Shown: one piece after another, positions 1,808 to 60,752 of the stretch
Position numbering within the stretch: the first letter of the stretch is position 1
How the letters are laid out: the number at the start of each line of letters is the position of its first letter
Origin: a virus
DNA: 64,000 nucleotides
Reading direction: 5' to 3' (one strand)
Virus record (IMG/VR): IMGVR_UViG_3300029858_000001
Location: 91,123-155,122 of that record
Position numbers and translations under genes: made by a program
Notes under the pieces: model-generated
What the model was told of the DNA's origin: nothing
Databases searched by the model: none
What the model saw: the letters and a program-made list of their open reading frames with translations, nothing else

Positions 1808-4800
1808 TTGAATACTTATTTTGGTTGCCATAATCATACAATGTATTCGAACCTCCGTTTACTAGATTGTATAAATAAACCAGAAACTTTAATTGATAAA
1901 GCTATTGAATTAGGACTTTCGGGAATTGCTATCACAGATCACGAAAGTCTTTCTGCCCATATGACAGTAAATCAGTACGCTAAAAAAATCAAAGAAAAAT
2001 ATCCAAATTTTAAAATAGCATTAGGCAATGAAATTTATTTAACTAATGATAGAAGCACAGGACAAAAGTATTACCATTTTATTTTAATTGCTAAAGATGC
2101 TATAGGATATCGAGCATTAAAAGAATTAAGTTCAATTGCTTGGCAAAATTTATATGTTGATAGAAAAATGGAACGTGTTCCACTTTTAAAGAATGAATTA
2201 AAATCAGTAGTAGAGAAGTATAAGGGACATTTAATTGCTACTACTGCATGTATTGGTGGAGAATTAGGCACTTGTCTTTTAAAGGCTGTAGAATATAAAG
2301 AACAAGAGAATAATTACGAATTATATCAAATTTTAAAACAAATAGATACTTTTCTTACTTTCTGTCAAAATTTATTTGGTGAAGACTTCTATTTAGAGAT
2401 TGCTCCATCGACTGCGGCAGATCAAAAACTTGTAAACCATATGATTTATAAAATTGGTCGTAGTTATGGAATTAAGGTAGAAGTTGCCACCGATAGTCAT
2501 TATTTAACGAAAGAAGATAGACCAATTCATAAGGCTTATCTTAATTCAAAAGATGGAGAACGAGAAGTTGACAAGTTTTATGAATTTGCTCATTTAATGA
2601 CTTATGATGAAGTTTTTGATTTAATTACCCCTTGTTTTATATATTTAGATATTGAAGAGCAGCCAGAAAAAATAGCTAAAGAAATTTTAAATAATACTCT
2701 TGAAATTCAAAATAAAATTGAAGATTTTTCTCTTGAGAGAAAACAAATAATTCCAAAAGTAGAAGTATTAGATTATAAAAAAGGTTTTATTCCTTTAGAC
2801 TGGATTAATAAATATCCTATTATTTGTTCTTTAATTAATAGTGATAATATTCAAGAACGATATTGGATAAACGAATGTATTAAAGCCTTACAAGAAAAAA
2901 AACTTTATTATAGTGAAAATTATTTAGCTCGTCTTGAAATTGAAGCTGACATTATAAGAGATATTGGCGAAAAATTAGATGATTGCCTTTTTGCTTATTT
3001 CAATACTTTTAAACATTATATTGACTTGTTTTGGGATTGTGGTTCTATCGTAGGTCCTGGACGTGGTTCGGCCACAGGTTTCTTATCTAACTATTTATTG
3101 GGAATAACCCAATTGGATCCAATTCGATGGGGCCTACCATATTGGAGATTTTTAAATAAAGAGAGAGCCGAATTACCTGATATTGATATTGATTTGGCTC
3201 CTTCAAAACGTCCAGCGATTTTTGAAGCTATTCGCAAAGAACGTGGAGAGTTAGGTTTAATTCAGGTCGCTACATTTGGTACTGAAACTACTAAATCTGC
3301 TATCCTTACGGCTTGTAGAGGTTATAGGTCTGATAAATATCCAAATGGTATTGATGTAGATGAAGCTCAATATATGTCCTCTCTTATTCCACAAGAACGT
3401 GGATTTTTATGGGAAATTAATGATGTTATTTATGGTAATGAAGAAAAAGATAGAAAACCGGTTAAAACATTTATTAATAAAGTAAATGAATATCCAGGGC
3501 TTCTTGATATAATTATTTACATTGGTGGTATCGTTAATAAACGTTCTTCCCATGCTTCTGGTGTTATTCTTTATGGTGATGATCCATATGATACAGCAGC
3601 ATTTATGAGAACACCAAGTGGTAGTTTAATCACTTGTTGGGACTTACATCAGACCGAGGCAGCAGGTGATACGAAATATGATTTCCTTGTTACTGAAGCT
3701 TCTGATAAAATTATTACTTGTTATGAATTATTATTAAAGGCAAAAGAAATTCCTAACTTATCTTTGAGAGATTTCTATAATCAATATATTCATCCAGAAG
3801 TAATAGATACAACTGATCAAAAAATTTGGGATCATCTTGCAGCTGGAGATGTATTAGACTGTTTCCAGTTTTCTACTGGTGTAGGATTAGCTATTGCTAA
3901 AAAATTAAAACCACAAGACCCTATGGAAATGACTGCGGCTAATGCTATGATGCGTCTTATGTCTGAAAAAGGTAAAGAATCACAGCAAGATAGATTTTAT
4001 CGTATTCAACATCAAGGCATTCAAGCATTTGATAAAGAAATGAAACAACATCATTTGCCGCAAGAGCTTATTGATAAATTTCATAAGCATTGTGATAAAT
4101 ATTATGGTTGTTGTCCTTTGCAAGAGCAAATGATGGAAATCCTTATGGACATAGCCCATTTTACATTAGGTGAAGCCAATTCTGCCCGTAAAGTTGTCGC
4201 TAAAAAACAAATGGCTAAAATTCCTCAATTAAAAGAACAAGTATTTAGTCGTTTTGATAATAAAAATGATGCAGAATATTTTTGGGAAACAGCAGTAGCA
4301 CCGCAATTAGGATATGCATTTTCATTAAATCATAGTTTACCTTATAGTTTTGTAGCCATTCAAATGATTTATTTCGTTATTCATTATAATCCTATCTATT
4401 GGAATTGTGCTTGTTTGATTGTTAATAGTGGTTCTTTGGAAGATAATAGTGAAGAAGAGATCGTAGATATTTATGACCCTGAAGCAGATGATTTGGCTAA
4501 TGGAGTTACTTTTGAAGATTTGCCTGATAAAAAATCTAAAGTAAGAAAAACTAATTCTACTGACTATGGAAAGATTGCTAAAGCTATTGGAGACATTCGT
4601 AAAGCTGGTATTCAAGTAAGTCTTGCTGATATTAATAAATCAGAATTTAGTTTTATTCCTGATATTGAGAATAACCAGATTCTATTTGGCTTAAAAGGTA
4701 TGCTAAATGTTGGTGATGATGTAGTTAAAACTATTATTGAAAATAGACCTTATAAATCCCCCAGAGATTTTTTAAATAAGGTTAATCCTAATAAACAAGC

Positions 4801-5788
4801 AATGATTTCACTTATTAAAGGTGGAGCATTTGATCATATGATGGATAGAAAACTTTGTATGGTCTGGTATATTTGGGAAACTTGCGATAAAAAGAAAAAT
4901 CTTAATCTTCAAAATTTAGCTACTTTAATGAAATTCAATCTTCTTCCTGCGGACACTCTTGAACGGCAGCAAGCTTTACACATTTATGAATTTACTCGTT
5001 ATTTAAAACAAATTTGTAAATATGATAAAGTTTATTATAAATTGGATGATAGAGCTATTGATTTTTTACAAAAAATTGATAAAGATAGTTTAATTCAAAA
5101 TAAAGATTCTAATTTTTATTTAAATATTAAAGATTGGAATGATAAAGTTTATCAAGGCTGGATGGATATTTATCGTAAACAAATTGCTGATAATAAAGAA
5201 GAAATTTTAAATAAATTAAATGAAATTATATTTAAAGACGATTGGAAAAAATATTGTCCTAAAGTAAATTATTCAGCTTGGGAAATGGAAGTATTATGCT
5301 TCTATTATCATGAACATGAATTGGCTCAAGTAAATCAAAGCAAATATGGATTTGCTGATTTTTATAGTTTACCTGAAGATCCAGTAGTAGAAAGAAGTTT
5401 TGTTAAAGCTGGAAAAACAATAAATATTTATTATTTATCTAAATTATGCGGCACTTGTATTGCTAAGAATAAAAATAAAAGTATTGTAACAATTCTTACT
5501 CCAACAGGAGTAGTAAATGTAAAATTTAGAAAAGAATATTTTACATTATTCGATAAACAAATTTCTCAAAAACAACCTGATGGAACTAAAAAAATTATTG
5601 AAAAATCTTGGTTTAATCGCGGTAATATGATTGTGGTTCAGGGCATTCGTTCAGGTGATGATTTCATTGCTAAAAAATATGCCTCAACTGCGGGTCATCA
5701 ACTTTATCATATTGATACTATTCAATCAAATGGGGATTTAATTTTAAGAAGTGAACGATATCAAGGAGTAGCAGAAGATGAAGAATAA
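1808..5788 (+). CDS. dnaE: DNA polymerase III alpha subunit, DnaE-type, with N-terminal PHP domain. No TAG in 1326 codons.
   Basis: PHP motifs HNHTMYS and ITDHES. Polymerase core GPGRGSATGFLSNYLLGIT. TTG start 7 nt after AAGGAGG; TAA is in frame just upstream. Confidence 0.9.
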   Translation: MNTYFGCHNHTMYSNLRLLDCINKPETLIDKAIELGLSGIAITDHESLSAHMTVNQYAKKIKEKYPNFKIALGNEIYLTNDRSTGQKYYHFILIAKDAIGYRALKELSSIAWQNLYVDRKMERVPLLKNELKSVVEKYKGHLIATTACIGGELGTCLLKAVEYKEQENNYELYQILKQIDTFLTFCQNLFGEDFYLEIAPSTAADQKLVNHMIYKIGRSYGIKVEVATDSHYLTKEDRPIHKAYLNSKDGEREVDKFYEFAHLMTYDEVFDLITPCFIYLDIEEQPEKIAKEILNNTLEIQNKIEDFSLERKQIIPKVEVLDYKKGFIPLDWINKYPIICSLINSDNIQERYWINECIKALQEKKLYYSENYLARLEIEADIIRDIGEKLDDCLFAYFNTFKHYIDLFWDCGSIVGPGRGSATGFLSNYLLGITQLDPIRWGLPYWRFLNKERAELPDIDIDLAPSKRPAIFEAIRKERGELGLIQVATFGTETTKSAILTACRGYRSDKYPNGIDVDEAQYMSSLIPQERGFLWEINDVIYGNEEKDRKPVKTFINKVNEYPGLLDIIIYIGGIVNKRSSHASGVILYGDDPYDTAAFMRTPSGSLITCWDLHQTEAAGDTKYDFLVTEASDKIITCYELLLKAKEIPNLSLRDFYNQYIHPEVIDTTDQKIWDHLAAGDVLDCFQFSTGVGLAIAKKLKPQDPMEMTAANAMMRLMSEKGKESQQDRFYRIQHQGIQAFDKEMKQHHLPQELIDKFHKHCDKYYGCCPLQEQMMEILMDIAHFTLGEANSARKVVAKKQMAKIPQLKEQVFSRFDNKNDAEYFWETAVAPQLGYAFSLNHSLPYSFVAIQMIYFVIHYNPIYWNCACLIVNSGSLEDNSEEEIVDIYDPEADDLANGVTFEDLPDKKSKVRKTNSTDYGKIAKAIGDIRKAGIQVSLADINKSEFSFIPDIENNQILFGLKGMLNVGDDVVKTIIENRPYKSPRDFLNKVNPNKQAMISLIKGGAFDHMMDRKLCMVWYIWETCDKKKNLNLQNLATLMKFNLLPADTLERQQALHIYEFTRYLKQICKYDKVYYKLDDRAIDFLQKIDKDSLIQNKDSNFYLNIKDWNDKVYQGWMDIYRKQIADNKEEILNKLNEIIFKDDWKKYCPKVNYSAWEMEVLCFYYHEHELAQVNQSKYGFADFYSLPEDPVVERSFVKAGKTINIYYLSKLCGTCIAKNKNKSIVTILTPTGVVNVKFRKEYFTLFDKQISQKQPDGTKKIIEKSWFNRGNMIVVQGIRSGDDFIAKKYASTAGHQLYHIDTIQSNGDLILRSERYQGVAEDEE

Positions 5789-6643: not shown

Positions 6644-6687
6644 CACTAAATATAGTATAAGTTTAAAAATTCATACTATATTTAGTG
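6644..6687 (+). promoter_or_regulatory. Perfect 15-bp inverted repeat (cactaaatatagtat / atactatatttagtg) between gmk and nrdD. Operator or transcript-processing hairpin.
   Basis: Seen directly. The stem is followed by the nrdD RBS rather than a T-run, so it is unlikely to be a simple terminator. Confidence 0.4.
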
Positions 6688-6699
6688 CGGAGGTTAAAA

Positions 6700-7986
6700 A
6701 TGTATATAATTAAACGTGATGGTACAGTTGTATTATTTGATAAAAATAAAATAATTAATGCTATTAACAAAGCATTTATAGAAGTCGATGGATAGTTATA
6801 TGAAAATGATACAGCTACTGATATTGCTAATGATATTGAATCTTGGATAAATAAATGTCCAGATGGTAGTATTGAAGTAGAAGATATCCAAGATATAATT
6901 GAAGATTATCTAATGCAGTCAGAACGACGTGACGTTGCTCGGGCCTATATTAGATATAGATATAAAAAAGAAGTAGCTCGATAGAAAAAAGATGATTTTA
7001 TTCAAGCTATTAGAAAAAAATTAGATGGTAAAGATATTAAAAATCAAAATGCTAATGTAGATGAAGCATCATTCGGTGGCCGTATTGGTGAAGCCAGTAG
7101 TGTGGTAACTAAACAGTTAGCTTTAGATTATATTGTATCTCCCATGACTCGTAAAAATCATTTAGAAAATATAATTTATACTCATGATCTTGATGCTTAT
7201 TATGTTGGTTCTCATAATTGTTTAAGTATTCCTTTTGATGATTTACTTGCTAATGGATTTAATACACGCCAAACAGATGTACGTCCAGCAGGTTCAGTGA
7301 ATACAGCTTTTCAATTAGTGGCTGTTATTTTCCAAATTCAAAGTCTTTCTCAATTTGGTGGCGTTAGTGCGACCCATCTTGATTGGACTATGGTTCCTTA
7401 TGTCCGTAAATCTTTTTATAAGCATTATCGTGATGGTATGAAATACTTATGCAATTGTAATTGGAATTTAGATAACTATTTAGAAGATAGTGATACCTAT
7501 AAAAAAATCATAGATATTCCGATTAATGATTATTCAGCTTATCTAAATGAAGCAGATGATGCTGGAGATTTTGATAAAGTATATCAATACGCTAGGGATA
7601 TGACTTTAAGAGAAGTCCATCAAGCAGTAGAAGGTATGTATCATAACCTTAATACTTTACAATCTCGTTCAGGTAATTAGTTACCATTTACTTCTATTAA
7701 TTATGGTACTTGCACTCTTCCAGAAGGAAGAATGATTATTAAAGCTCTTTTGGATGTATCTATCGAAGGTATTGGTAAATTACATAAAACATCTATTTTC
7801 CCTTGCGGAATTTTTCAGTGCATGAAAGGTGTTAATCGTGAAGAAGGAGACCCAAATTACGATTTATTTAAACTCGCATTACGTTCAACCGCCACAAGAT
7901 TGTACCCAAATTATGCTAATGTCGATTGGTCTGGAAACGCAGGGTATGACATTAATGATCCTCGTACCTACTTTTCTACAATGGGT
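6700..7986 (+). CDS. nrdD: Anaerobic ribonucleotide reductase NrdD, exon 1 (ATP-cone plus catalytic N-terminal part). In-frame TAGs at 6793, 6979 and 7678.
   Basis: ATP-cone N-terminus MYIIKRDGTVVLFDKNKIINAINKAF. The frame ends at ...FSTMG; the conserved MGCR continues only when joined to exon 2. The last exon nucleotide is T, as expected for a group I 5' splice site. Confidence 0.8.
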
Positions 7987-14021: not shown

Positions 14022-14062
14022 AAAAAAATAAAGGGAAGCAATTGCTTCCCTTTATTTGTTAT
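14022..14062. terminator. Bidirectional rho-independent terminator where the early (+) and late (-) transcription units converge
   Basis: A-run, then the perfect hairpin gggaagcaattgcttccc, then a T-run. Confidence 0.8.
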
Positions 14063-14064
14063 TT

Positions 14065-14559
14065 TTATACAATTTTTGTAGCTAATGTGGCTATCTTTCT
14101 TTGTAATAATTGTTTTTCTTCAGGAGTAGCATCCTGAATCATTTCTAAAAGATCAGAAGTTAGAACTTGGGCATAATCTTCTAACTCTCTCATCTATTGG
14201 GCCTAGTCCATATGATGTTCCTTACTTTCAATGTAAGATTTACGTTTCATTGGGCTATGGCCCATTTTTTTACTATCATCGTTCATTCCGCCTGTGCCTG
14301 TATAATTATAACCGTTATATCCACCATCATAATCCTTAGTATAATGTTTATCTCCATAATAATCATTATTTACATAATAAGGATATGGATTTTTGCGTTT
14401 ACGAGGATCTTTCATCATACCGATGTCATAAATTTCTTCTTCCTTGTTCTCTAACATAGCATCTACGATTGATCCATAATAACAAGCTTCGGCCAAATCT
14501 TTAATCATATCAATAACTTCTCCCATTTCATGGGTATCTGCTTGTTGAGGATTAGCCAT
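14065..14559 (-). CDS. Hypothetical protein (Tyr/Asn/Gly-rich), last gene of the late operon. Three in-frame TAGs.
   Basis: ATG 14559. The frame is open through TAG at 14203, 14194 and 14092 to TAA 14065-67. Confidence 0.45.
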
Positions 14560-14618
14560 TTGCTATTCAACTAAAGTTATTAAACTATTTTTAATCTAAC
14601 ATAATTTTTCCATCATAA

Positions 14619-15038
14619 TCAAGCCACCCTTTCTATAATAAGACTGGCATTTTCAACACTGACAGCAGAAGCACTGGTATTCTCAACACTTATCTATTGG
14701 CAACATCCACGTGGAACATTTAAAAATAAAGCACGAGAAATACTATTAAACTATTCTACTGCAGTTGGGGTTGAAATCATTGTAGTTTCTGCAACAGGTT
14801 CCCCATTAATAGCTATTGCCAAAGAAATAGGAGCTACAGTTGCACCAGTTGGAAGAGCTACATTAGCTCCAAAAGTAACCTTAAATCTGGCTCTACATTG
14901 ATTAGTTATACCTCGTAAAGTTACTAATCCGCTACCTTCACGATGAACCATGGCGCAACTGCCTGGAACAGCGGTATTAGTAAACACTACATTACCATTG
15001 GCATTTACCGTTTGTAAAGCATTAGCTGTTATTTCCAT
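14619..15038 (-). CDS. Hypothetical Ala/Thr/Val-rich beta-type protein (possible BclA-C-terminal/C1q-like fold), TAG-containing
   Basis: ATG 15038 with RBS. Track ORF 14751..15038 continues through TAGs to TGA 14619-21. Confidence 0.4.
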
Positions 15039-15058
15039 TTTTTAACCTCTTTTCTTTA

Positions 15059-15424
15059 TTAAGCAGTATACTAGCATCCGCATCCAGTATAATTAGTTCC
15101 TGCATAAGGATTTTGAACAACATAAGCTGGGATAGGAGCTTTGCTGCTTAATTGGTCTATTAAATAAGCATTCTGTAAGTTTTGAGAAATCTAACCTTTA
15201 AGGGTAGCATTTTCAGCAGTAAGAGTTTCAATCTTATCTTGGACAAGGAAATCAAGGATAGAACGCATACTAGCATTAGTATTATCAATGATATCTCTTA
15301 CTCCTTCATTAACTACTTGACGGTTTTGGCAAGCTTGACTTGCTAAATTATAATTTAAATCAGCGAAGCTTGATGTAATAAGATTCTTATTCTCGCAGCA
15401 GCACTGAGCATTCGTCGCTGCCAT
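15059..15424 (-). CDS. Hypothetical Cys-containing protein (CCC...GCGC), TAG-containing
   Basis: ATG 15424 abuts the upstream TAA. Open through TAG 15191 and 15071 to TAA 15059-61. Confidence 0.4.
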
Positions 15425-15910
15425 ATTATTTAATTGCTGAGAAAGAGCGTTTGTATTCTACATATTAGCAATAGTATCAGCATTAATAGCTTGAGTAATA
15501 CCAAAAGTATTCTACATAGCATTCATACCTAAATTACTAATATCAGATTGTAAAGTACGAGCATTTCCGTTTAAAGTTTCAGTAACACCTGCAAAGCCAG
15601 TTAATAAATTATTATTAACGCCAGCAAAACCATTACATAAACCTGTCTGTAAAGAATTAATACCAGACTTAATGTCGCTTACATCAAAGCCATAAGTTAA
15701 TTCTTCTCTCGTTGTAGTTCCCTGATATCCAGAACCATTGGCGCCATTACCCCAGCCGTTTCCGCCCCAGCCATTGAAGCAGAAAAGGAAGAGAATAATT
15801 ATCCACCATGCACCGTTACCCCACATACCATCATCACCATTACGGTATCCATTACCGCCTGTGGCTGCGGCAATATCAGCTAAACTATAACCATTACTTG
15901 TGTTGAACAT
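15425..15910 (-). CDS. Gly/Asn-rich protein with one central TM helix (WWIIILFLFCF); possible lysis/holin-like function
   Basis: ATG 15910. Open through TAG 15512 and 15458 to TAA 15425-27. GNGWGNG repeats flank the TM segment. Confidence 0.4.
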
Positions 15911-16186
15911 ATAAATGTCCTCCTTTAATAAAAATATTATTTAATCCCAAGCTATTGCTTAAAGGAATTAAATTCTTTATCAAAGTCTAACCCTTTCTAT
16001 GCACATATATTACGTGCTATCTGTTCTATTCCACTGGTATTTCCATTCTATGCCATCTATAGTAAATTATTTGCCATTGGATTATTCTATTGCTATAAAA
16101 ATGACATTATTAACTATTGAGGATTAGACCCACCTTTTATCATTTGAATAATCTACATAGGATTTATTTGCATAATTTATTACTCC

Positions 16187-16618
16187 TTAAAAATTAATTT
16201 GCTATTTAGGCTATTCTTCTACTTTTGGCTATTGCTTCTATTGCTAAGTCTACTAAGCAATCATATTTAATGCACCTTTAATATCATTTAATGTTTCATC
16301 AAATTCCTAACGAGTAACAAAATTAGATGAATTAAAAGCTTCCGTAGGAACTTCTTTATACTCATACATATTCATAGATGCTGTTCCATCTAAATTAATT
16401 TGCTTAGTATAAATCCTTTTATTAGCCAAATCAGGAAAGAAAAATACAGAACCGTCAAAATCAATAGCGGCAGCTCTTGCTTCTTCCAATGAAGAAACTG
16501 GACGACCTTTTAATCCAATAAAAGCAGGCTATGGCTACTAACTTGGAGGTATTATTGTATTGGTCCTTTGTGGTTGATAATAACTTTGATTATTTCCAAA
16601 ACCTTGATATAAATTCAT
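16187..16618 (-). CDS. Gln/Pro-rich hypothetical protein in which most Gln codons are TAG
   Basis: ATG 16618. Runs such as S-TAG-TAG-P-TAG-P and A-TAG-TAG-T-TAG-CAA-TAG-K-CAA-TAG alternate TAG with CAA inside obvious poly-Q tracts. Confidence 0.5.
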
Positions 16619-16747
16619 AACTAAAATCCTTTCTTATTTATTCTTTCTATACTTATATAAAAAATATTGTCAAATAATTTCCCAATTTTATCAAAATTTT
16701 TGGGAAAAAATTTAGGGCATTTTAGTACAATAAATAAGCATAAAAAA

Positions 16748-16778
16748 AAATGGGAGAACCATATCGGTTCTCCCATTT
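16748..16778. terminator. Rho-independent terminator (bidirectional shape)
   Basis: A9, then the hairpin tgggagaacc atatc ggttctccca, then a T-run. Confidence 0.7.
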
Positions 16779-16780
16779 TA

Positions 16781-17188
16781 TTATTTTGTTTCTGTTGGAG
16801 TAATTTTATTTGTACTAACTTCTTTTTCAATTTTAGAAGAAATATACTCATTGAGATCTCCAACAGCAGAATTCAAATATTCAATAGCATCTTGACCTAA
16901 AATAGCAATTACTTTATTATAAACATCAGTAAATGCTTTTTTCTACGCTTCGCCATCAAATTTTCCTTGCTGTTTTAATGAATTAACATAAGTCTGATTC
17001 ATTGCAATAACACAATCGGTAATTGTATTATCAAGCATATCTAAATATTTTTTAGCTAATTCGCTATCTGTTTGTTGCTTTAAAGCATCTTTTTTAGATT
17101 TAATCCAAGCAACTAAGAATGTCGTTAAAATTCCAAGTAAAGGAATAATACAAATCTGAAATATTTGCGCAACTAATTGAGCATCCAT
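16781..17188 (-). CDS. Small membrane protein with one N-terminal TM and a charged C-terminus (holin-like candidate)
   Basis: ATG 17188 with GGAGG RBS. Track ORF 16943..17188 continues through TAG 16943 to TAA 16781-83, just before the terminator. Confidence 0.4.
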
Positions 17189-42470: not shown

Positions 42471-43556
42471 TTAAATATCAAAATAGCTGTCATGCATTGG
42501 ATCATGGATAGTTTGAGTACGATAGACACTATCATTGTCAATATCTTCAATGATCTGAACTGCAGCAAGCACTTTCTTAGTAGGATTGAAACGAGTAGTT
42601 CCTGGGAAAGCATCAAGCGTGAAGGTAAAAGTCGCAGGATCACCAGTTGCGGCCATACTGAAAGTAAAGTTAGACTGGATCTTGCAGTTAGGAATTACGA
42701 ATTCTGCTGGAAGATCAACGCCGTCTTGAGTACGGAATAGAGTAGAAGCTTCAAGATAGAAGTTGCCACCAAAAGATTCAGCAGTAATTTCAATTTGACG
42801 AGCTTTGCTAGCTTTCTCAATATAATAATCAAGAAGAACGACAGAGCCTTCAAAAAGTGCTAATTTATGTTCTGCATCAGCTTCAGTTTCATCAACGATA
42901 GTATAAGTAGAAGTAATATCCTGAATTTGAAGCCCATAATAAATCTGAATACCAGCTTTAGCTTTAGTATCAGCTTCTTCATCAGTACAAGTCTTATACT
43001 TCATTTCAGTTTCATCAAAATAGAACTTTTGAGGTTTTGTCGGTGCATCTGCCTAACGAATAACTGTAGGAAGATAAGGTTCAGTTACTGGCTCATCATT
43101 GTCAACTCGCATAGCATAAATATAGAATTCACCCTTATGCGCACCAGTAGTAGTATCAATTTGTTCGTATGGTAAATTTTTAACAAAAATTTGAACACTC
43201 TTTTTATTTTCAGCAAGAGCGACAGCAGTTGTTTTTTCAGTTACATGCTGTTTAATTGTATTCTGTTTAGAAGCATCAATAAGACCTGCTCCAGCAAGAA
43301 TCATGAAACCTTCAGCAGAAATAAGAGCGTCTTCCATAGTGAATGTTAAAGTACGGTCGCCATCCCAAGCTACTAAACGAGCATTGCCGCGTCCGCCTTG
43401 TGCATATACGGTCGTAGAAGCACCTTCAAGGCTAGAAGTTTTTAATGTATCGAAATAAAGAACTGGTTCGTTCGCATAGAAAACTTTATTACCAACCTTC
43501 ATAGGAGCACGAGCTTTTAATACGACATCGCATATCTCACGAACACCAAATTTCAT
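42471..43556 (-). CDS. Major tail (tube) protein with a C-terminal Ig-like domain; one TAG
   Basis: N-terminus MKFGVREICDVVLKA... is typical of phi13-family major tail proteins. Strong RBS AAGGAGG. Track ORFs 43053..43556 and 42471..43004 are in one frame, joined through TAG 43053. Confidence 0.6.
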
Positions 43557-46889: not shown

Positions 46890-47456
46890 TTAACCTTCTT
46901 TTACAACGTTATAACGAGGAGTAGTTCTACGACCAGGAGGCGTTGTGGGCTTAGTTTCGGTCTTTACTCTACGTTCAGGAGCTTTTGGAGTAATTTGCTC
47001 ATCATCTGCAGCTTCAGCTTCCTTATTGGCTAATGCTCGATCAAGATCAAATCCAGTTTTATCCTTAAGAGCTTTACGCTTATTATAATCACTCATAGGA
47101 AGAGACACAGCATAACTCTTAATCATATCAATAACTCCAATAGGAGCAAAATCAAGACAGTCAAGGAATTCATCAAGAGTTCCTTCAGTAAGAAGCTTAA
47201 TAACTCCAGCGTCGTCTAAATAATATTCAGGTTCTGTATGAATACCTAATTCTTCTGTAGTTTCAGTATCCACAATCTTTAAGAAATTTTCCATTAAAGT
47301 GCGGCCTCCGCTAAGATAGGCAAGTTTCTCTAATTCCTCAAAAGGAATTTTCTTAGTTTCTCCAGGTGTAAATTCTCTGCGGATACCTTCTTCAGGAATA
47401 GTATAAACAACCATTCCAGCACTTCTATTAGTAACTATTAAAATTTTTTTACTCAT
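46890..47456 (-). CDS. Hypothetical protein with a basic Pro/Thr-rich tail, TAG-free
   Basis: Intact 188-aa ORF directly after the capsid-gene terminator. Confidence 0.55.
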   Translation of the reverse strand: MSKKILIVTNRSAGMVVYTIPEEGIRREFTPGETKKIPFEELEKLAYLSGGRTLMENFLKIVDTETTEELGIHTEPEYYLDDAGVIKLLTEGTLDEFLDCLDFAPIGVIDMIKSYAVSLPMSDYNKRKALKDKTGFDLDRALANKEAEAADDEQITPKAPERRVKTETKPTTPPGRRTTPRYNVVKEG

Positions 47457-47555: not shown

Positions 47556-48692
47556 TTACGGCTTATCTTCATTTCCGCCATCAATAGTATCATGAGAACC
47601 AGTAATCTGACCAGCATAGTCACGAACCTTACCAGTTACGCCATCAAGATGCCATGTCTTCATATCACCAAGAAGTTCAGTATCACAATAGCAGCAGATG
47701 TTATTAGCTAACATAGCAATAACGCCAACTTTCTTATAAACCTGAATTTCACGGCTACGATCATAATTGGTGTATTCATCAACAATGGTATTGCCTTCCA
47801 TAGCAACCTTTACAGGCTTACTATCAGCACCAGTAGGAATAATCCAAGCATAACCTGGGTCAATGACTTTCTTTTCATTAGTAGCATCTTCAAAGCCCTG
47901 CTCAAGAATAACAACTTTATAGCCCTTATAGGAAGCAAGACGACCAGTATTCCAAAGCTCATTTTTCATAGCTTCAGTATAACGCCAAGCATCCTTCGGA
48001 ATCATACGAACAGCAAATTCATAAGTGCAATAAATAGTAGGAGTACCATAAGCAGAAGCAATCATAAGTAACTTATCAAAGCCGGGTTCATCAAAACCAT
48101 TAGCAACTAAACGGTTAGCAGGAGGTAACTGGTTAACAGAAGCCTTTAAAGCACCGGCAATTTCTTTATAGATAAGTTCGTCCATACCTTCCATGACGAT
48201 CTGGGTAACAACACCAAAATCAACACGGCCATCAAGGAATTCCTCAAAGCCAATTTGAGCAGCTCCGCCGATAGCGCTTGTACGGACTTCAAAGCATTCT
48301 TCAGTCTTACCAAGCTTGAATACTTCATAGATACCAGCTAGGCCGACACGAGTGATGAATTGCTTTGCACGAGTATTGTTGCTGAACTTTCTACGGAAAA
48401 TAGGCTTGTCACCCTGTTTAAACGTCTTAACTTCAGCAAACTGATTGTATTGCTCTTCAACTTTCTTAGGAAGAACTTCATCAATAGTTTCCTCAATCAT
48501 TGAGAAAATAAGGTTCTTATTATCACGATATAAAGAATAAGTTCCAGCAAGTTCATTTAATTCTCTACGGAGAGTTTCATTAAGAGCATCATAAGAAAGG
48601 CTTTCGCCATTAAAGCTGTAAGCAGTAGGAGTAGAAGGATCAGCCTTAGCGACAGTCTTCATTAATTGAACAAGATTTTTTCTATCTAACAT
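47556..48692 (-). CDS. Major capsid protein (HK97-like by size and position), TAG-free 378 codons
   Basis: Intact ORF preceded by a strong RBS GAAAGGAGAG. Positioned after the scaffold-like genes, followed by a strong terminator. GC is higher than the surroundings. Confidence 0.65.
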   Translation of the reverse strand: MLDRKNLVQLMKTVAKADPSTPTAYSFNGESLSYDALNETLRRELNELAGTYSLYRDNKNLIFSMIEETIDEVLPKKVEEQYNQFAEVKTFKQGDKPIFRRKFSNNTRAKQFITRVGLAGIYEVFKLGKTEECFEVRTSAIGGAAQIGFEEFLDGRVDFGVVTQIVMEGMDELIYKEIAGALKASVNQLPPANRLVANGFDEPGFDKLLMIASAYGTPTIYCTYEFAVRMIPKDAWRYTEAMKNELWNTGRLASYKGYKVVILEQGFEDATNEKKVIDPGYAWIIPTGADSKPVKVAMEGNTIVDEYTNYDRSREIQVYKKVGVIAMLANNICCYCDTELLGDMKTWHLDGVTGKVRDYAGQITGSHDTIDGGNEDKP

Positions 48693-48709: not shown

Positions 48710-49486
48710 TTACGCGATTCGCATAATCTTAACGCCCTTTTGATGATCAGGCATTTCATAAACCTTGACAACCTACCATTGGATAGAGCCATCACCAGAC
48801 TTAGAAAGCATACCATCAGTAGCACGAGGACTTAAAACATCGCCAACTGCAAGAGTAGCTTCGGCAATAGTATTAGTCGTAAAAATATCACCAACATTGG
48901 TCTTGAAAACACGAGGAACCATATTAGTACCAGCGGGCATTCTACGGGCCTCATAAGGACCATCAAAATGTAAAGGATCTTCTTCATAGAAGAGTTCACG
49001 AATATCAGGACCAGCAGTAACATCATCATACTCATAAGTATGTTGTACACCCTGACTATCTGTAATAGTCATAGAAGTATTACCTTCGGCGTCCTTACCA
49101 TTTAAATAACGAGCCTGACGTGTACCAATTTCCTGCTTACCATCATATGGGCTGTAGTAACGAGCCTGATAATCATCTTTGCGCATAGCAAATTCGCAAT
49201 CAGCTTGTTCCTCACGATAAAGTTTAATTTCATTATAAACTAACATCCATTCGCCCTTGCCAGTGAAATCAACTTCACCAAGGTCACCAGCAGCATAGTC
49301 ATACTTAACAAACTGGCCATTTTCAAGAAGCTGGATATTTTTGTTAGCAGGTAATTGAGCGTAAATCTGACCAGTGCGCTGAGCACTTAAATGATTAGGC
49401 TCAACCTGACCATAGCCATATTCAACGTAACCGCCCTTAACAGCAGATACGCCGCTTAGGTCTTTAAGCATATCTTTTAAAAGCAT
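48710..49486 (-). CDS. Hypothetical capsid-associated protein (~258 aa), one TAG
   Basis: Track ORF 48773..49486 continues through TAG 48773 for 20 codons to TAA 48710-12. Confidence 0.5.
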
Positions 49487-56220: not shown

Positions 56221-57285
56221 TTAGGATTTCATTTTTTCTTTACGAGAACTATTTCGGCATTTTTTGCATATACTATAAAATCCATCTTTACTTGTTTTAT
56301 TATAGGAAAAATATTTATTGTGAGCCAATTTAATTTGCCCACATCTACTGCATTTTTTATACTTACCTTTTTCTTGAGTCGTATAATACCATTCTAAATA
56401 TTTATCAACGGCTTTATCAGCAATAAGTTTTGGTATTTTATTGCGGAATAAACTTGATATATATTCTAAGCTGTGAGTAATATTAAATTCTTCTTGTAAA
56501 ATTTTTTGAATCTCTATATTTTGTAATCCATCAATTTTACATTCTACAATGCGCATTAACATAGGATAGTCAGCTAAGGCTTCATCGCAAATATTTTCAA
56601 AATCATAAATAAGATACCAAGTATCATCTTCAAAACGATCCCAACTGTCTTCTTTTAATCGAGAATAGTTACATAAGACACAAGAGCAAATTTCAGGATT
56701 CATTAATGAAATTCCTTCGGGAATTGGATATCCATCATCATCGAACATTTTTACATCTTCATCTAATTTAATTTTATATTTAGATCGTGTAAGTTTTACT
56801 GGTACTATTGGTTTTCGATAAGCATTTTTAATAACATATTGATCTTTGCGCATTTCTATTAATGCCTTTTTTATAGTGAAAGCATCTTTACCACTTACTA
56901 CTTTCATTTTTGCTTCCCAAGTTGTAATAGCGTCTTTTAATTGTTTTAAGCTAGGAATTTCTTCTAAATCTTTTTTTGTAATTGTAACTTTTGGCTAAAA
57001 TATCATATTCTTATCACTATTAATTAAATTATATATACCATCTTCACCATTCTCTAACTGGGAAACAAGTCCTTCGAAAGAAGTTTCACGTTTATTAACT
57101 GTCATTAATCTATTATCAGTTAATATTTTCTTTTCTTTTTTTTCTTGTTTCTCCATACATAGAATTAGATAATCTGCGAGGATTTCTAAATACTTTTCAT
57201 TAGGATTTGGATTTTCCTCTAAAATTTTTTTTACTAATTCATTTCGTTCTTCAGGAGTTTCAAGAGTATAATCTAATTTTATCAA
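56221..57285 (-). CDS. First late-operon protein (~354 aa) with a C-terminal CxxC...CxxC zinc ribbon; possible DNA-binding or regulatory protein
   Basis: TTG 57285 after AGGATTGGAGG. Track ORFs 56995..57342 and 56221..56907 are in frame, joined through TAG 56995. The ATG at 57342 lies inside the -35 box. Confidence 0.45.
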
Positions 57286-57313
57286 GATTAATACCTCCAA
57301 TCCTTCTAAAAAA

Positions 57314-57342
57314 ATTATAACACAAAAAATTTGCAAAGTCAA
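57314..57342 (-). promoter_or_regulatory. Consensus promoter for the 43-kb late operon (TTGACT, 17 nt, TATAAT on the minus strand)
   Basis: Revcomp of 57337-42 is ttgact. Revcomp of 57314-19 is tataat. The spacer is exactly 17 nt. Confidence 0.6.
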
Positions 57343-57645: not shown

Positions 57646-58083
57646 ATGAAGTTTGTCCATGGGCTTCTTTTAGGTACTGGGGCGGCGTTTGGTTTAGGAT
57701 GTGCGGCCAGATTTATTTACGGTAAAATTATTGAAGCAAAAATTTATAAAGATTATACTAAAGCGCTTGAAGATTTTATGAATTTCAAAAGCGATAAAAA
57801 ATATATTGAATATAATAAAGGGCTAGAAGAAAAATATATTGGGCCTGGAATAGTTCATGTCATTAAAAATAAAAAAGATTTAATGGCTATTGACTTATCT
57901 AAATATGAAGAAGAGGGAGATCCAATCGGCATTACTCTTGGTTCTAAAATTGTAGATAAAGAAGATCAATATATTATACCTGAAGTAGAAGTTTATAAAT
58001 TTAAAAATGGATATACAAATTATCGGTTCCATCAAGAACGAGGAGTAATTGACCCTAATGAAGGTATTATTCCTTTTGATTAA
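57646..58083 (+). CDS. Membrane-anchored hypothetical protein
   Basis: N-terminal TM. GAGGGAAG RBS. Confidence 0.5.
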   Translation: MKFVHGLLLGTGAAFGLGCAARFIYGKIIEAKIYKDYTKALEDFMNFKSDKKYIEYNKGLEEKYIGPGIVHVIKNKKDLMAIDLSKYEEEGDPIGITLGSKIVDKEDQYIIPEVEVYKFKNGYTNYRFHQERGVIDPNEGIIPFD

Positions 58084-58112
58084 TTTATGTTAAGATCTTG
58101 TTAAGAAAAATT

Positions 58113-58141
58113 TTGACAAAAAACAAAAAATTTTGTAAAAT
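58113..58141 (+). promoter_or_regulatory. Promoter-like element (TTGACA, 17 nt, TAAAAT)
   Basis: ttgaca aaaaacaaaaaattttg taaaat. Confidence 0.45.
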
Positions 58142-58202
58142 AAGTTATAAAATTTGTGGGATGGTTCACACTCTCCCAATTAAAAAGAAAGGAGTGAGTT
58201 TA

Positions 58203-58403
58203 ATGCTGAAAACAGCTTATACAAGAAAACTCGATACAGTTGGACGTTTAATGATTCCTTCTAAACTTCGTGAAGAATTGCATATGGTAAATGGTCATAA
58301 TTATGAATTTTATATTGACGAAGTAGATGGTAAGACTTTTTTATGTATTGAATGTCCTGAAGCCAGTGACGCCGTAGCTCTTGCAAAAGAAACGTTGGAA
58401 TAG
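58203..58403 (+). CDS. AbrB/SpoVT/MazE-family swapped-hairpin DNA-binding protein
   Basis: KLDTVGRLMIPSKLREEL matches the AbrB-N GRvviP..iR motif. RBS AAAGGAG. ATG 58203. Confidence 0.6.
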   Translation: MLKTAYTRKLDTVGRLMIPSKLREELHMVNGHNYEFYIDEVDGKTFLCIECPEASDAVALAKETLE

Positions 58404-58439
58404 AATGGGTATCGAGTAATTAAAGAATAATTAGATTAA

Positions 58440-58475
58440 AGCGGGAAAATATTTTCCCGCTTATTTTTTTTTATA
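58440..58475 (+). terminator. Rho-independent terminator
   Basis: aagcgggaaaatattttcccgctt followed by T10. Confidence 0.8.
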
Positions 58476-58595
58476 AAAATCGTTTTTTAAAATTGAAATA
58501 ATTATCGTTTTCTGAAATTAAAATTATTATCGTTTTTTGAAATTGAAAATGAGTTTAGAAATTATTATCGTTATCTGAAATTGGAATTGAGTTTA
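58469..58595. repeat. Four iteron-like direct repeats (core tatcgtttt[ct]tgaaatt), spaced 25, 25 and 38 bp
   Basis: Units start at 58469, 58494, 58519 and 58557. The last two carry an extra gagtttagaaattatt module. Confidence 0.6.
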
Positions 58596-58654
58596 GAAAT
58601 TATTTTGCCAGGCAGGAAGATTTATCCATTTTTTCCATTTTTTTTACACGAAAC

Positions 58655-58725
58655 CCTGCCCCCCACTTCACTTGACTAAAGTGTTAAAGTCTATTGTCTT
58701 ACTTTACTTGAGTGAAGTGAGTTAG
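58655..58725. repeat. Long imperfect palindrome (cacttcacttgactaaag ... ctttacttgagtgaagtg)
   Basis: 14 of 18 positions match between the arms. Flanked by C-runs. Confidence 0.4.
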
Positions 58726-58774
58726 ATACGACTAACCCCCGAAAAAAATATTTCGTTTTTTTTGAAAAAAGTTC

Positions 58775-58802
58775 TTGACTTTTTGGAAATAGCCGCTATA
58801 AT
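58775..58802 (+). promoter_or_regulatory. Near-consensus promoter P1 (TTGACT, 16 nt, TATAAT)
   Basis: aaaaagttcttgact ttttggaaatagccgc tataat. Confidence 0.6.
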
Positions 58803-58885
58803 GATAATCAGAAATCAACCACAAGGCAATGCAAAACAAGCCGCAAGGCAAGCGAAAAAAATTCAAGAAATTTTGAAAAAAGTTC

Positions 58886-58914
58886 TTGACAAACAGAGCG
58901 CCATGTGGTACAAT
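58886..58914 (+). promoter_or_regulatory. Consensus promoter P2 (TTGACA, 17 nt, TACAAT), a tandem duplicate of the P1 upstream context
   Basis: The shared upstream motif ttgaaaaaagttcttgac occurs at both P1 and P2. Confidence 0.6.
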
Positions 58915-58921
58915 TCAAAAT

Positions 58922-59173
58922 GTCAAGAGGACAGAGACAGACCACAGCAAGTTCTCTTGTGTGACGTAAAATGACCGGCAGACGCGGACAGCACCGAACC
59001 GCTTGCACCTTGTAAAGTGAATTTAAGCCAAACGCCTGCACCGCACAGCGGGCGCAATGGTAGAACATGGAAAGTGCGGTGCAAGCTGTAGGGCAGTCCA
59101 ACGCCTACGGCAGACAGCATCACGGACAGGTGACACCTAACAGTCAAATAATATGTAAAGGATTGGTAAAATC
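58922..59173 (+). ncRNA. GC-rich, highly structured ~250-nt leader (or small RNA) between P2 and the first ORF, with mutually exclusive helices
   Basis: gcttgcacc (58996) and tgcaccgcac (59037) can each pair with the overlapping gtgcggtgcaagc (59074-86). GC here is ~55 % against ~30 % elsewhere. Confidence 0.3.
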
Positions 59174-59578
59174 ATGGTTATAAACATATTCACAAGTAAG
59201 GAAGATAAGGAAAAAGCTATCAAGACAGAGCTTGCTGAGCAGGCACAGGACTTGGTAGGATATGTCAAGCAGTACCATATGTTGGGGGACGAGTTCGACT
59301 ATGAACGCACCCTTGAGACATATCATTGTTATGCGGCAAGTAACATTGACGCATGGGATAGCTTAACATGGGCTATTGATAGCGCAGAATATGACCTTGA
59401 GCATACGCCATATAATATGGATATGGAAACCGGCTGTCCATGTGCTGAATATGATGCAATTTACCAGAAGCTGGCAGATATGCGCGAAGAAGCCGAGGAA
59501 TGGGCAAACACCTTTGAGCATATGTTCGAGGACTTCTTTAATAAGCTGTATGACCTGTTATATGGTGAAGAAGCATAA
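59174..59578 (+). CDS. Acidic hypothetical early protein
   Basis: Intact ORF with RBS. TAA stop. Confidence 0.5.
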   Translation: MVINIFTSKEDKEKAIKTELAEQAQDLVGYVKQYHMLGDEFDYERTLETYHCYAASNIDAWDSLTWAIDSAEYDLEHTPYNMDMETGCPCAEYDAIYQKLADMREEAEEWANTFEHMFEDFFNKLYDLLYGEEA

Positions 59579-59631
59579 GCTTCTTCACCCATTCACCTAA
59601 CAACACTTTGACATTATATGGAGGTAAAACT

Positions 59632-59967
59632 ATGAACCGTATCAATAGAAGAGCCATTCGCAAGGAAGCGCTGATGAACACCATCGAGCGCGTTAATACT
59701 GCCATCAGCAAGGTTAACTTCTCTGACCCTAATGGCAAGGACACCTTCCACAAGCTGTTGGACAAGAAGGACTATATTGCTCAGCAGATCGCCGAAGCCA
59801 GCTACACCGAGTATTCGATGAAAGCTAACTATAATGAGGTCAAACGCATTCTCTCTCATATGGATGAAGGCGGCTGTGCTGAGTGGGTCAAGTGGGACAT
59901 TAAGCAGCTGGCAGCAAGTCGGCGTCGCTGGGCTATCGCCACAAGCAAGCAGATTTGGTTGGGCTAA
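59632..59967 (+). CDS. Hypothetical early protein
   Basis: ATG 59632 after GGAGGT. Confidence 0.5.
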   Translation: MNRINRRAIRKEALMNTIERVNTAISKVNFSDPNGKDTFHKLLDKKDYIAQQIAEASYTEYSMKANYNEVKRILSHMDEGGCAEWVKWDIKQLAASRRRWAIATSKQIWLG

Positions 59968-60000
59968 TTGCCCAACCAACCACAGAAAGGGGACAACATT

Positions 60001-60189
60001 ATGTACGCTATCTATAATCACACCACAGGCAAGTATGGCATTATCTACCGCAGTCTGACCGTAGCACGGTCTATGGCTCACGCTTACAGCATATGGGCAA
60101 AGAATGACAGAGATGTCATTGATATGCAGACTGGCGAAGTAATGAGTCAGTTTAGCAAAGGACACGAAACTTATAGGGCTATGGCTTAA
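60001..60189 (+). CDS. Hypothetical early protein (62 aa)
   Basis: ATG 60001 after AGAAAGGGGA. Confidence 0.45.
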   Translation: MYAIYNHTTGKYGIIYRSLTVARSMAHAYSIWAKNDRDVIDMQTGEVMSQFSKGHETYRAMA

Positions 60190-60224
60190 TTGCCATAGCC
60201 TACCAATAGAAAGGAGATAACATT

Positions 60225-60530: not shown

Positions 60531-60598
60531 GTCCCTCTACCGCTTACCAACCGCACAATCGAGCGCATGAATTGAATTTTCGGAAAGGAATTTTTGAA

Positions 60599-60751
60599 AT
60601 GAAAAATTTCAAACTCGCTATTTACCTTACCTCAGTCATAGTCTTACTCTGGATTAGCATTTCATTTTGCAATGTAGTTGCGCATAATAATCCGGCTGAT
60701 GGGGCTTATGAATATCCCTCTTGGAACTTTTTCGTGATGATGGAGGATTGA
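60599..60751 (+). CDS. Possible 50-aa single-TM peptide
   Basis: RBS GGAAAGGAA. Hydrophobic core LAIYLTSVIVLLWISISF. Confidence 0.3.
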   Translation: MKNFKLAIYLTSVIVLLWISISFCNVVAHNNPADGAYEYPSWNFFVMMED

Positions 60752-60752
60752 A

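What the first reader, a model, noticed from the sequence alone, without database searches (positions are those of the whole stretch)
16187..16618. Gln/Pro-rich protein whose glutamines are written mostly as TAG
S-Q-Q-P-Q-P and A-Q-Q-T-Q-Q-Q-K-Q-Q-P-K-V-E-E-Q-P-K-Q-Q are encoded as runs of TAG interleaved with CAA. This is almost a built-in control for the amino-acid identity of TAG. It also makes this protein an extreme sensor of suppressor availability. Its function is unknown; it sits between the holin-like gene and the Gly-rich membrane protein.
Basis: seen in the sequence. Interest (0 to 1): 0.6.

Follow-up and report, generated by a model that had tools for sequence, protein, structure and literature searches.

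The report
Gln-rich phage protein written with TAG
This is a real late gene of a gut phage that reads the stop codon TAG as glutamine; its many TAGs follow from a glutamine-rich protein in a genome already known to be of this recoded kind, so the coding is ordinary, although the protein and its conserved neighbours have no known function.

Summary
A minus-strand ORF (ATG 16618, TAA 16189-16187) has 143 codons: 11 TAG, 8 CAA, no CAG.

**The window is TAG-recoded.** ORF coverage rises from 38% to 92% when TAG is read as sense. None of 44 genes ends in TAG.

**TAG = Gln is supported, mainly not by the Q/P tracts.**
- The tracts are disordered and do not align by position.
- The near-invariant Gln73 (IYTKQI) is TAG in two recoded lineages and CAA/CAG elsewhere.
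- In close relatives, TAG swaps mostly with CAA/CAG.

**The gene is not specially TAG-biased.** Its TAG share of Gln codons is 58%, against 44% for all late (minus-strand) genes (p=0.25). Its high TAG density (7.7%) comes from 13% Gln content.
- A missed 78-codon ORF just downstream (16173-15937) is denser, at 10.3%.
- A 3127-aa protein carries 108 TAGs.

**The protein belongs to a large uncharacterised family** (965 clusters at 50% identity). It has a conserved ~85-residue core, disordered Q/N/Y/P-rich arms and a near-invariant C-terminal Phe.

**It opens a terminator-bounded cassette after the holin.** The first three genes also occur together in cultured, standard-code Clostridium perfringens phages.

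Function is unknown. No suppressor tRNA was found.

The parts
16187..16618 (-). CDS 'gQ143': 143 codons plus TAA; 11 TAG, 8 CAA, 0 CAG. Residues 1-34 form a disordered Q/N/Y/P arm, 35-120 the conserved core (short helix, three strands, long helix), and 121-143 a disordered Q/P/K tail ending in Phe.
   Evidence: (the exact Gln translation is in the protein database, seen on 682 contigs)
16529..16540 (-). First TAG cluster: codons 27, 28 and 30 (S-q-q-P-q-P).
16202..16255 (-). Second TAG cluster: seven TAG (codons 122, 123, 125, 127, 130, 136, 139) interleaved with CAA (codons 126, 129; codon 140 follows).
16307..16309 (-). Isolated TAG, codon 104 (VTRqEF). The position is variable in the family, mostly Glu.
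16400..16402 (-). CAA codon 73, the near-invariant Gln of IYTKQI. The same position is TAG in related recoded loci L007 and L016-L023.
16627..16632 (-). Shine-Dalgarno-like AAAGGA, 8 nt upstream of the ATG.
   Evidence: read directly from the sequence
16747..16779 (-). Intrinsic-terminator-like hairpin (15 pairs, then a T run) between the holin gene and gQ143.
16781..17188 (-). Upstream neighbour: 135-aa holin-like protein with an N-terminal TM segment; 1 TAG in 10 Gln codons.
   Evidence: (phrog_13712 holin, E=5.6e-29)
15937..16173 (-). It accompanies gQ143 in nearly every fetched locus that extends downstream, whichever code is used.
15059..15910 (-). 'gGly283': Gly/Trp-rich region with one TM helix, one predicted helix of about 180 residues, and a Cys-rich C-terminal tail. 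TAG-poor (4 of 19 Gln codons). Third member of the conserved triad.
14619..15038 (-). 'g139': phrog_20016, function unknown. Fourth gene of the cassette.
14065..14622 (-). 'g185': Tyr/Gly/Asn-rich middle and helical ends. Fifth gene of the cassette. The start codon is uncertain.
14026..14057 (.). Bidirectional terminator-like hairpin that closes the cassette where the two strands' genes converge.

Best explanation
**Shown**
- 16187-16618 (minus strand) is a genuine late gene of a large (about 186-188 kb) phage whose late genes use TAG as a Gln codon (genetic code 15).
- Its 11 TAGs are ordinary Gln codons. Their density is the product of a Gln-rich protein (13% Gln against 4.8% on average) and the late genes' general TAG share of Gln codons (about 44%).
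- The protein belongs to a large uncharacterised phage family. It has a disordered Q/N/Y/P-rich N-terminal arm, a conserved core (LKGRPVSSxEEARAxxIDFDGSxFxFPDxANKxIYTKQINxDGT, then a VTREEF helix), and a disordered P/Q-rich tail ending in a near-invariant Phe.
- It is the first gene of a cassette bounded by terminator-like hairpins downstream of the holin: gQ143, g78, gGly283, g139, g185.

**Inferred**
- The host is probably a member of the Bacillota (Clostridia).
- A full-length product can appear only once TAG is being decoded, presumably by a suppressor tRNA encoded outside the window. Without decoding, the product is a 26-residue peptide.
- From strict co-occurrence, gQ143 acts with g78 and the membrane-anchored coiled-coil protein gGly283. 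It is probably a soluble partner that docks through its flexible arms and C-terminal Phe, in a late membrane or envelope step.
- Which step this is (lysis accessory, exclusion, other) is not known. I give the membrane-partner idea about 0.3.
For: **Coding and code**
- ORF coverage is 37.5% under code 11 and 91.6% with TAG as sense.
- 0 of 44 genes end in TAG.
- TAG share of Gln codons is 14% on the plus-strand replication genes and 44% on the minus-strand structural genes.
- Terminase, portal and a virion structural protein are identified in the minus-strand block.
- The exact Gln translation is in the protein database on 682 contigs; the lookup returned contigs of about 185-188 kb.

**TAG = Gln**
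- See: Gln73, TAG-to-CAA/CAG swaps in close relatives, g78 columns aligned with Gln in standard-code phages, and 109 of 254 substitutions being Gln codons.

**Family and fold**
- 965 cluster representatives at E<=1e-3.
- Conserved columns include Q73 and F143.
- AF2 core pLDDT is roughly 75-92, and both arms are disordered.

**Cassette**
- The five-gene order recurs in L003-L023 and in MAG loci, including standard-code L009, L012 and L013.
- The triad recurs in L001, L002 and L024-L029.
- Terminator-like hairpins flank the cassette.

**Host**
- Genome-collection hits are mostly MAGs labelled Bacillota (Acutalibacteraceae, Clostridia, Christensenella, Ruminococcus); a few bins carry other labels.
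- There are homologues in C. perfringens phages.

**No special TAG bias**
- Fisher p=0.25 against the other late genes.
Against: - No suppressor tRNA was found in the window or in 70.1-183.8 kb of the 188.5-kb relative contig IMGVR_UViG_3300045988_152007. The decoding agent is therefore assumed, not shown.
- In C. perfringens phages the triad lies among small early or moron-like genes, about 3.5 kb downstream of the annotated amidase and holin genes. A role in lysis is therefore not implied by position everywhere.
- Within the cassette, gQ143 and g78 use TAG far more than gGly283 across 16 recoded lineages (34% against 8%, CMH p=2.6e-13). A purely neutral account has to explain this as TAG avoidance in gGly283.
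Confidence: 0.8

Rival explanations
1. The TAG load is an adaptive gate. Selection has packed TAG into gQ143 (and g78) so that these proteins appear only, and steeply, once suppressor activity is high. This would time a lysis-related step, as Borges et al. proposed for lysis cassettes of recoded phages.
For: - It has the highest TAG density among ORFs of 80 codons or more, and its neighbour g78 is denser still.
- In 16 recoded lineages gQ143+g78 use TAG for 34% of Gln codons, against 8% in the co-transcribed gGly283 (CMH p=2.6e-13). The adjacent holin has 1 of 10.
- Yield scales as p^11.
- Preferential recoding of lysis-neighbourhood genes has been reported in two other phage lineages (bioRxiv 10.1101/2021.08.26.457843).
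Against: - Its TAG share (58%) equals that of the tail genes next door (47-58%) and does not differ from the late-gene mean (p=0.25).
- The genes that stand out are the TAG-poor ones: gGly283, the holin, and several virion-module genes at 0-9% (47556-48692, 48710-49486, 42471-43556, 56221-57342). This looks like TAG avoidance where efficient translation matters.
- The 3127-aa protein (108 TAG) sets a far stricter demand on suppression.
- TAG share does not differ between the core and the arms (p=0.58).
- The lineages compared are related, so the CMH p-value overstates independence.
Confidence: 0.2
2. TAG here is not Gln: it encodes another amino acid, or is read through at low level or by chance.
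For: - No suppressor tRNA or dedicated decoding factor was found in the sequence examined.
- At many TAG columns in the disordered arms, distant homologues carry E, K, N, P, A or gaps.
Against: - The near-invariant Gln73 is TAG in two lineages.
- g78 columns 9, 22, 23, 58 and 82 pair TAG with a majority of Gln in standard-code homologues.
- CAA/CAG make up 43% of all TAG replacements. The one-step neighbours are rare: AAG 5, GAG 3, TAT 5, TTG 2, TGG 0.
- TAG-to-Gln has been shown by metaproteomics in other gut phages (PMC9523058).
Confidence: 0.03
3. It is a decaying pseudogene or non-coding spacer whose 'ORF' is an artefact of ignoring TAG.
For: Under the standard code the region holds only a 60-aa ORF.
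Against: - There is no TAA or TGA in 143 codons of AT-rich DNA (about 1e-4 by chance, from the composition).
- It has a ribosome-binding site.
- There are thousands of homologues with the same length and architecture, including in standard-code phages where the gene is an ordinary ORF.
- AF2 predicts the core confidently.
Confidence: 0.01

Closest known systems
TAG-to-Gln (genetic code 15) recoded gut phages: crAss-like, Lak and the 'gemstone' clades of Borges et al. (bioRxiv 10.1101/2021.08.26.457843; metaproteomic proof in PMC9523058)
   Same: - In-frame TAG is concentrated in the structural and lysis genes, and replication genes are TAG-poor.
- TAG is never used as a terminator here.
- TAG aligns with Gln in homologues.
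- The predicted host uses the standard code.
- Genome size is in the range reported for the large clades.
   Different: - Clade membership was not determined.
- No suppressor tRNA, release factor or aminoacyl-tRNA synthetase was located in the window or in about 60% of a relative's genome.
- The holin itself is TAG-poor, unlike the lysis-gene bias described for crAss-like and Agate phages.
Uncharacterised phage proteins WPH56259.1 (Clostridium phage XP41-N3), XCD05038.1 (Dulem virus 36) and phrog_21718
   Same: - Same architecture: a Q/N/Y-rich N-terminal arm, an RPV(S/T)SxEE...DGS...IYTK core and a following helix.
- Followed by homologues of g78 and the Gly-rich membrane protein.
   Different: - These are standard-code genomes of 39-54 kb, with Gln written CAA/CAG.
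- They are 32-52% identical over the core only.
- The C-terminal tail differs (GGN(K/V).. instead of ...NF).
- In C. perfringens phages the triad sits among small early or moron-like genes, not after the tail genes.
- The phrog_21718 match is weak (E=2e-6).
Two-component spanins (Rz/Rz1) and other holin-adjacent lysis accessories (analogy from general knowledge only)
   Same: - A holin-adjacent gene set.
- It contains a protein with an N-terminal TM anchor, a long helical stalk and conserved cysteines (gGly283).
- It also contains a small Pro/Gln-rich partner.
   Different: - gQ143 has no signal peptide or lipobox (sequence).
- The likely hosts are monoderm Bacillota.
- There is no sequence or fold match.
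- The cassette has its own terminator-bounded unit.

Membership tests
Genetic code 15 (TAG = Gln) phage | Reading TAG as sense restores long ORFs and normal coding density | tested here: met
   Coverage by ORFs of 100 aa or more is 37.5% under code 11 and 91.6% with TAG as sense. TGA as sense gives only 42%.
Genetic code 15 (TAG = Gln) phage | TAG is not used as a terminator | tested here: met
   44 curated genes end in TAA (35) or TGA (9), and none ends in TAG.
Genetic code 15 (TAG = Gln) phage | In-frame TAG aligns with Gln in homologues | tested here: met
   Gln73 of gQ143, several g78 columns, and 109 of 254 TAG replacements being CAA/CAG.
Genetic code 15 (TAG = Gln) phage | A phage-encoded amber suppressor tRNA (anticodon CUA) or other code-change machinery | tested here: not met
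   - ARAGORN found no tRNA in the window.
- It found none in 70.1-183.8 kb of the 188.5-kb relative contig.
- Rfam gave 0 hits in the window.
- The remaining roughly 75 kb could not be fetched.
- Borges et al. detected such tRNAs in only 40% of TAG-recoded genomes, so this feature is common but not obligatory for detection.
Genetic code 15 (TAG = Gln) phage | Recoding concentrated in late (structural/lysis) genes | tested here: met
   TAG share of Gln codons is 44% on the minus-strand structural block and 14% on the plus-strand replication block. The DNA polymerase III alpha-like gene has 0 of 56.
phrog_21718 / gQ143 family | Significant profile match and a shared core motif | tested here: inconclusive
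   The phrog_21718 match is E=2e-6 over residues 11-138. The family itself is robust: 965 representatives, with an invariant V41, E46, D55-G56, T71, D77-G78 core.
Spanin (Rz/Rz1-type) pair | An outer-membrane lipoprotein partner with signal peptide and lipobox, in a diderm host | tested here: not met
   The N-terminus MNLYQGFGNNQSYYQPQR has no hydrophobic signal or Cys lipobox. Related loci come mostly from Bacillota MAGs and Clostridium phages.
   phrog_13712 'holin' at E=5.6e-29, with an N-terminal hydrophobic segment. No Pfam holin family matched.
Known anti-phage defence proteins (PADLOC) | A match to any PADLOC model for the five cassette proteins | tested here: not met
   No hits at E<=0.01.

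The most novel reading that the evidence does not exclude
The conserved triad gQ143-g78-gGly283 is a so far undescribed late membrane module of Clostridia phages. Its parts are a soluble protein with disordered arms, a small Met/Gln-rich partner, and a membrane-anchored coiled-coil protein about 26 nm long with a Cys-rich tip. In recoded lineages the two soluble partners would be gated by TAG decoding, while the membrane anchor and the holin are kept TAG-poor. The module would then be armed only after the code switch.
Probability: 0.12. Interest if true: 0.6.

Novelty: new member of a known kind. Interest (0 to 1): 0.3.

Why it matters
**For the genetic code question it adds little.**
- TAG-to-Gln recoding of late phage genes is established.
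- This gene behaves like any other late gene of such a genome.
- It does offer convenient test peptides and a clean positional control (Gln73, plus several columns of g78) against cultured standard-code Clostridium perfringens phages.

**The more useful by-product is the gene neighbourhood.**
- The first three genes of the cassette form a triad of unknown function, with very unusual composition.
- The triad is present in thousands of gut-phage contigs.
- It also occurs in isolated C. perfringens phages, where it could be knocked out.
- Within the same cassette, TAG use differs reproducibly between genes, which bears on how recoded phages distribute TAG.

Tried and rejected
**Searches on gQ143 that found nothing significant**
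- Pfam: only BMFP at E=0.11.
- NCBIfam and PADLOC.
- PDB sequence search with the single sequence and with the family profile.
- Foldseek against PDB: no E<=0.001.
- Foldseek against BFVD: the significant hits are almost all unnamed phage proteins; one is labelled 'Membrane fusogenic activity protein'.
- afdb50 was not available.
- Source names in the big protein database were only 'hypothetical protein'.
- Megablast of 14-20 kb of the window against the GenBank phage collection: no match.

**Ideas tested and dropped**
- TAG concentrates in the fast-evolving disordered arms rather than the core: not supported (6/11 against 24/28, p=0.58).
- TAG is avoided near the 5' end. In this gene the first 26 codons have 0 TAG / 4 CAA (p=0.018). 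There is no such trend over all late genes (p=1.0), and relatives have TAG at codon 15.
- g78 is an STI1/DP-like Met/Gln-rich chaperone domain: only one insignificant hit at E=0.5. This stays a lead from memory.
- A spanin analogy: no lipobox, and the hosts are monoderm.
- g139 as a capsid cement protein: PDB 7dn2 at E=0.06 only.

**Suppressor tRNA walk**
- I walked a relative's genome in 10-kb steps using the 7 remaining IMG/VR scans (8 used in all).
- No tRNA was found in 113.7 kb of the 188.5 kb.
- An exact-sequence lookup of the DNA polymerase failed.

Full report
**1. Observation**

The finding lies on the minus strand. The reverse complement of 16187-16618 is a single frame beginning with ATG (16618) and ending with TAA (16189-16187).
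- It holds 143 sense codons: 11 TAG, 8 CAA, no CAG.
- AAAGGA lies 8 nt upstream of the ATG.
- From the base composition, about 2.9 TAG would be expected in 143 random codons. The chance of meeting no TAA or TGA is about 1e-4.
- Under the standard code only a 60-aa piece is open.

**2. The genome is recoded**

- Reading TAG as sense raises the fraction of the window covered by ORFs of 100 aa or more from 37.5% to 91.6%.
- None of 44 curated genes ends in TAG: 35 end in TAA and 9 in TGA.
- TAG supplies 14% of Gln codons in the plus-strand block. That block holds a DNA polymerase III alpha-like gene with 0 of 56, NrdD, NrdG, guanylate kinase and dUTPase (Pfam marks).
- TAG supplies 44% of Gln codons in the minus-strand block. 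That block holds terminase, portal, a virion structural protein, giant tail-region proteins and a holin.
- This is the pattern described for TAG-to-Gln phages (bioRxiv 10.1101/2021.08.26.457843; proteomic proof in PMC9523058).
- The exact Gln translation of the gene is already in the protein database, seen on 682 contigs. The lookup returned contigs of 185-188 kb.

**3. Is TAG really Gln here?**

- Those tracts lie in arms that AlphaFold2 leaves disordered (pLDDT below 50 for residues 4-34, and 53-56 for the tail).
- The arms do not align by position. At most tract columns, distant homologues show gaps or other residues.
- What is conserved is composition. Standard-code homologues have N-terminal arms of 14-26% Gln written CAA/CAG. 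Clostridium phage XP41-N3 has QQFNQQQQPQPIQQVQQPQ as 12 CAA and 1 CAG.

Three stronger tests all point to Gln.
- *Gln73.* Gln73 in IYTKQI is Q in 134 of 146 cluster representatives and nearly invariant in two alignments. At that column the recoded loci L007 and L016-L023 carry TAG. The window and the other recoded loci carry CAA/CAG. Ten of eleven standard-code loci carry Gln.
- *Close relatives.* Among the window and six close relatives, 10 of the 15 columns that hold a TAG vary, and 9 of those 10 include CAA or CAG.
- *Ten late genes.* Compared with nine related loci, 254 distinct differences have TAG on one side. Of these, 109 are Gln codons (CAA 82, CAG 27), followed by Lys 34, Glu 28 and Asn 17. 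The one-step neighbours AAG, GAG, TAT, TTG and TGG count 5, 3, 5, 2 and 0, and TAA never occurs. CAA is two mutations from TAG, so this spectrum reflects amino-acid identity and not mutational proximity. One caveat: these alignments were made with TAG scored as Q.

**4. Is this gene special in its TAG use?**

- Its TAG share of Gln codons (58%) does not differ from the other late genes (Fisher p=0.25) and matches the tail genes next to it at 47-58%.
- Its record TAG density among ORFs of 80 codons or more (7.7% of codons; the next is 3.5%) comes from its Gln content of 13.3% against 4.8%.
It has 8 TAG, 5 CAA and 1 CAG, so 10.3% of its codons are TAG. Other annotators call this ORF. It has standard-code homologues in Dulem virus 36 and in C. 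perfringens phages.
- Several of its TAGs fall in columns where most standard-code homologues have Gln: columns 9, 22, 23, 58 and 82. It is a better positional control than gQ143.
- As a 'sensor', yield scales as p^11. The 3127-aa protein carries 108 TAGs, so a per-codon decoding efficiency high enough to yield it (about 0.99 gives 34%) gives about 90% of gQ143.

**5. The protein**

- A HMMER scan of 1.84 billion representatives finds 965 clusters at E<=1e-3.
- Members are 115-180 aa long and share four features:
  - an N-terminal arm rich in Q, N, Y, P and M (mean 18% Gln);
  - the core LKGRPVSSxEEARAxxIDFDGSxFxFPDxANKxIYTKQINxDGT;
  - a VTREEF helix;
  - a P/Q/A/T-rich tail ending in Phe in 101 of 148 representatives.
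- AlphaFold2 with 72 sequences gives a short helix (44-49), a three-stranded meander (58-86) and a long helix (103-126), with pLDDT roughly 75-92 through the strands and the start of the helix.
- Pfam, NCBIfam and PADLOC are silent. phrog_21718 (unknown function) matches weakly.
- There is no signal peptide or TM segment.

**6. Neighbourhood**

- A strong terminator-like hairpin (16779-16747) follows the holin gene. A bidirectional one (14026-14057) closes the block.
- Between them lie five genes: gQ143, g78, gGly283, g139 (phrog_20016) and g185.
- The same order recurs in IMG/VR loci L003-L023 and in several MAG loci. This includes standard-code genomes L009, L012 and L013.
- The first three genes recur in more distant standard-code phages. 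In Dulem virus 36 they come after the receptor-binding protein. They also occur in the 50-kb group L024-L029 and in C. perfringens phages XP41-N3, CPD1, CPQ4 and others. In the C. perfringens phages they sit among small early or moron-like genes.
- gGly283 is predicted as one TM helix flanked by Gly/Trp-rich segments, a single helix of about 180 residues with a conserved CCC motif, and a Cys-rich tail.
- Some cluster representatives fuse the gQ143 core to the C-terminal ends of gGly283, g139 or g185 (P0137, P0181, P0233, P0261, P0263, P0170). These are most simply deletions within the same cassette.
- Related loci come mostly from MAGs labelled Bacillota, though a few bins carry other labels.

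**7. Mechanism and rivals**

- Best supported: an ordinary late gene whose TAGs are Gln codons, translated in full only when TAG is decoded.
- The functional proposal is inference from co-occurrence only, and I put it at about 0.3. It says gQ143 is a soluble partner of g78 and the membrane-anchored gGly283, using its flexible arms and C-terminal Phe.
- The adaptive-gate rival has one real point in its favour. Across 16 recoded lineages, gQ143+g78 use TAG for 34% of Gln codons and gGly283 for 8% (CMH p=2.6e-13; the lineages are not independent).
- However, gQ143 sits at the late-gene average. It is gGly283, the holin and several virion-module genes (0-9% TAG) that deviate. TAG avoidance in genes that need efficient translation is the simpler reading.

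**8. What is missing**

- No tRNA is present in the window and there are no Rfam hits.
No tRNA appears in 70.1-183.8 kb of its 188.5 kb.
- The agent that decodes TAG is therefore not identified.

**9. Verdict**

- The phenomenon is a known one.
- The unexplained part worth following is the conserved cassette, not the codon usage.

Noticed in passing
window 15937-16173 (-): An unlisted 78-codon ORF lies between gQ143 and the Gly-rich gene. It has 8 TAG in 78 codons (10.3%), the densest in the window. It is Met/Gln-rich with NPxQ repeats, and has homologues in standard-code phages where several of its TAG columns are Gln.
   Followed up: yes
window 14026-16779; loci L003-L023, L001, L002, L024-L029: A terminator-bounded five-gene cassette of unknown function follows the holin. 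Its first three genes travel together in phages of 30-190 kb, including cultured Clostridium perfringens phages.
   Followed up: partly
window 15059-15910 and 16781-17188, compared with 15937-16618: TAG use differs reproducibly within one cassette. gGly283 (8% of Gln codons over 16 lineages) and the holin (1 of 10) avoid TAG, while gQ143 and g78 do not (34%).
   Followed up: partly
L031 10709-12321; also L006 and L007 (about 6683-7797): In some relatives the gGly283 gene is split by an insert carrying an HNH_3 endonuclease gene. This suggests a mobile intron or similar element inside a cassette gene.
   Followed up: no
proteins P0137, P0181, P0233, P0261, P0263, P0170: Cluster representatives join the gQ143 core to the C-terminal ends of gGly283, g139 or g185. 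These are probably deletion variants or assembly chimeras within the same cassette.
   Followed up: no
window 1808-5788 (+), 47556-48692 (-), 46890-47456 (-): Some genes are TAG-free: the DNA polymerase III alpha-like gene (0 of 56 Gln codons) and two virion-module genes. The 378-aa one sits where a major capsid gene would be expected (by position only).
   Followed up: partly
window about 58000-64000: The right end has higher G+C (0.38 against about 0.29). It carries only short, mostly plus-strand ORFs with few TAG, including an AbrB-like one at 58098-58430. One ORF tested (59174-59578) has no relative in IMG/VR, so this looks like a variable region.
   Followed up: partly
IMGVR_UViG_3300045988_152007, 70.1-183.8 kb (loci L004, L053, L115, L125, L204, L216, L218): No tRNA gene of any kind was found in 60% of the closest long relative genome, although TAG is heavily used as a sense codon.
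   Followed up: partly
window 16640-16700 (-): Upstream of gQ143 there is an inverted repeat TTTCCCAA...TTGGGAAA, next to a TTGACA hexamer. It could be a promoter or operator for the cassette.
   Followed up: no
window 14619-15038 (-): g139 has a weak sequence match to a phage capsid 'cement protein gp15' (PDB 7dn2, E=0.06), which is not significant. g185 has a Tyr/Gly/Asn-rich middle segment.
   Followed up: no
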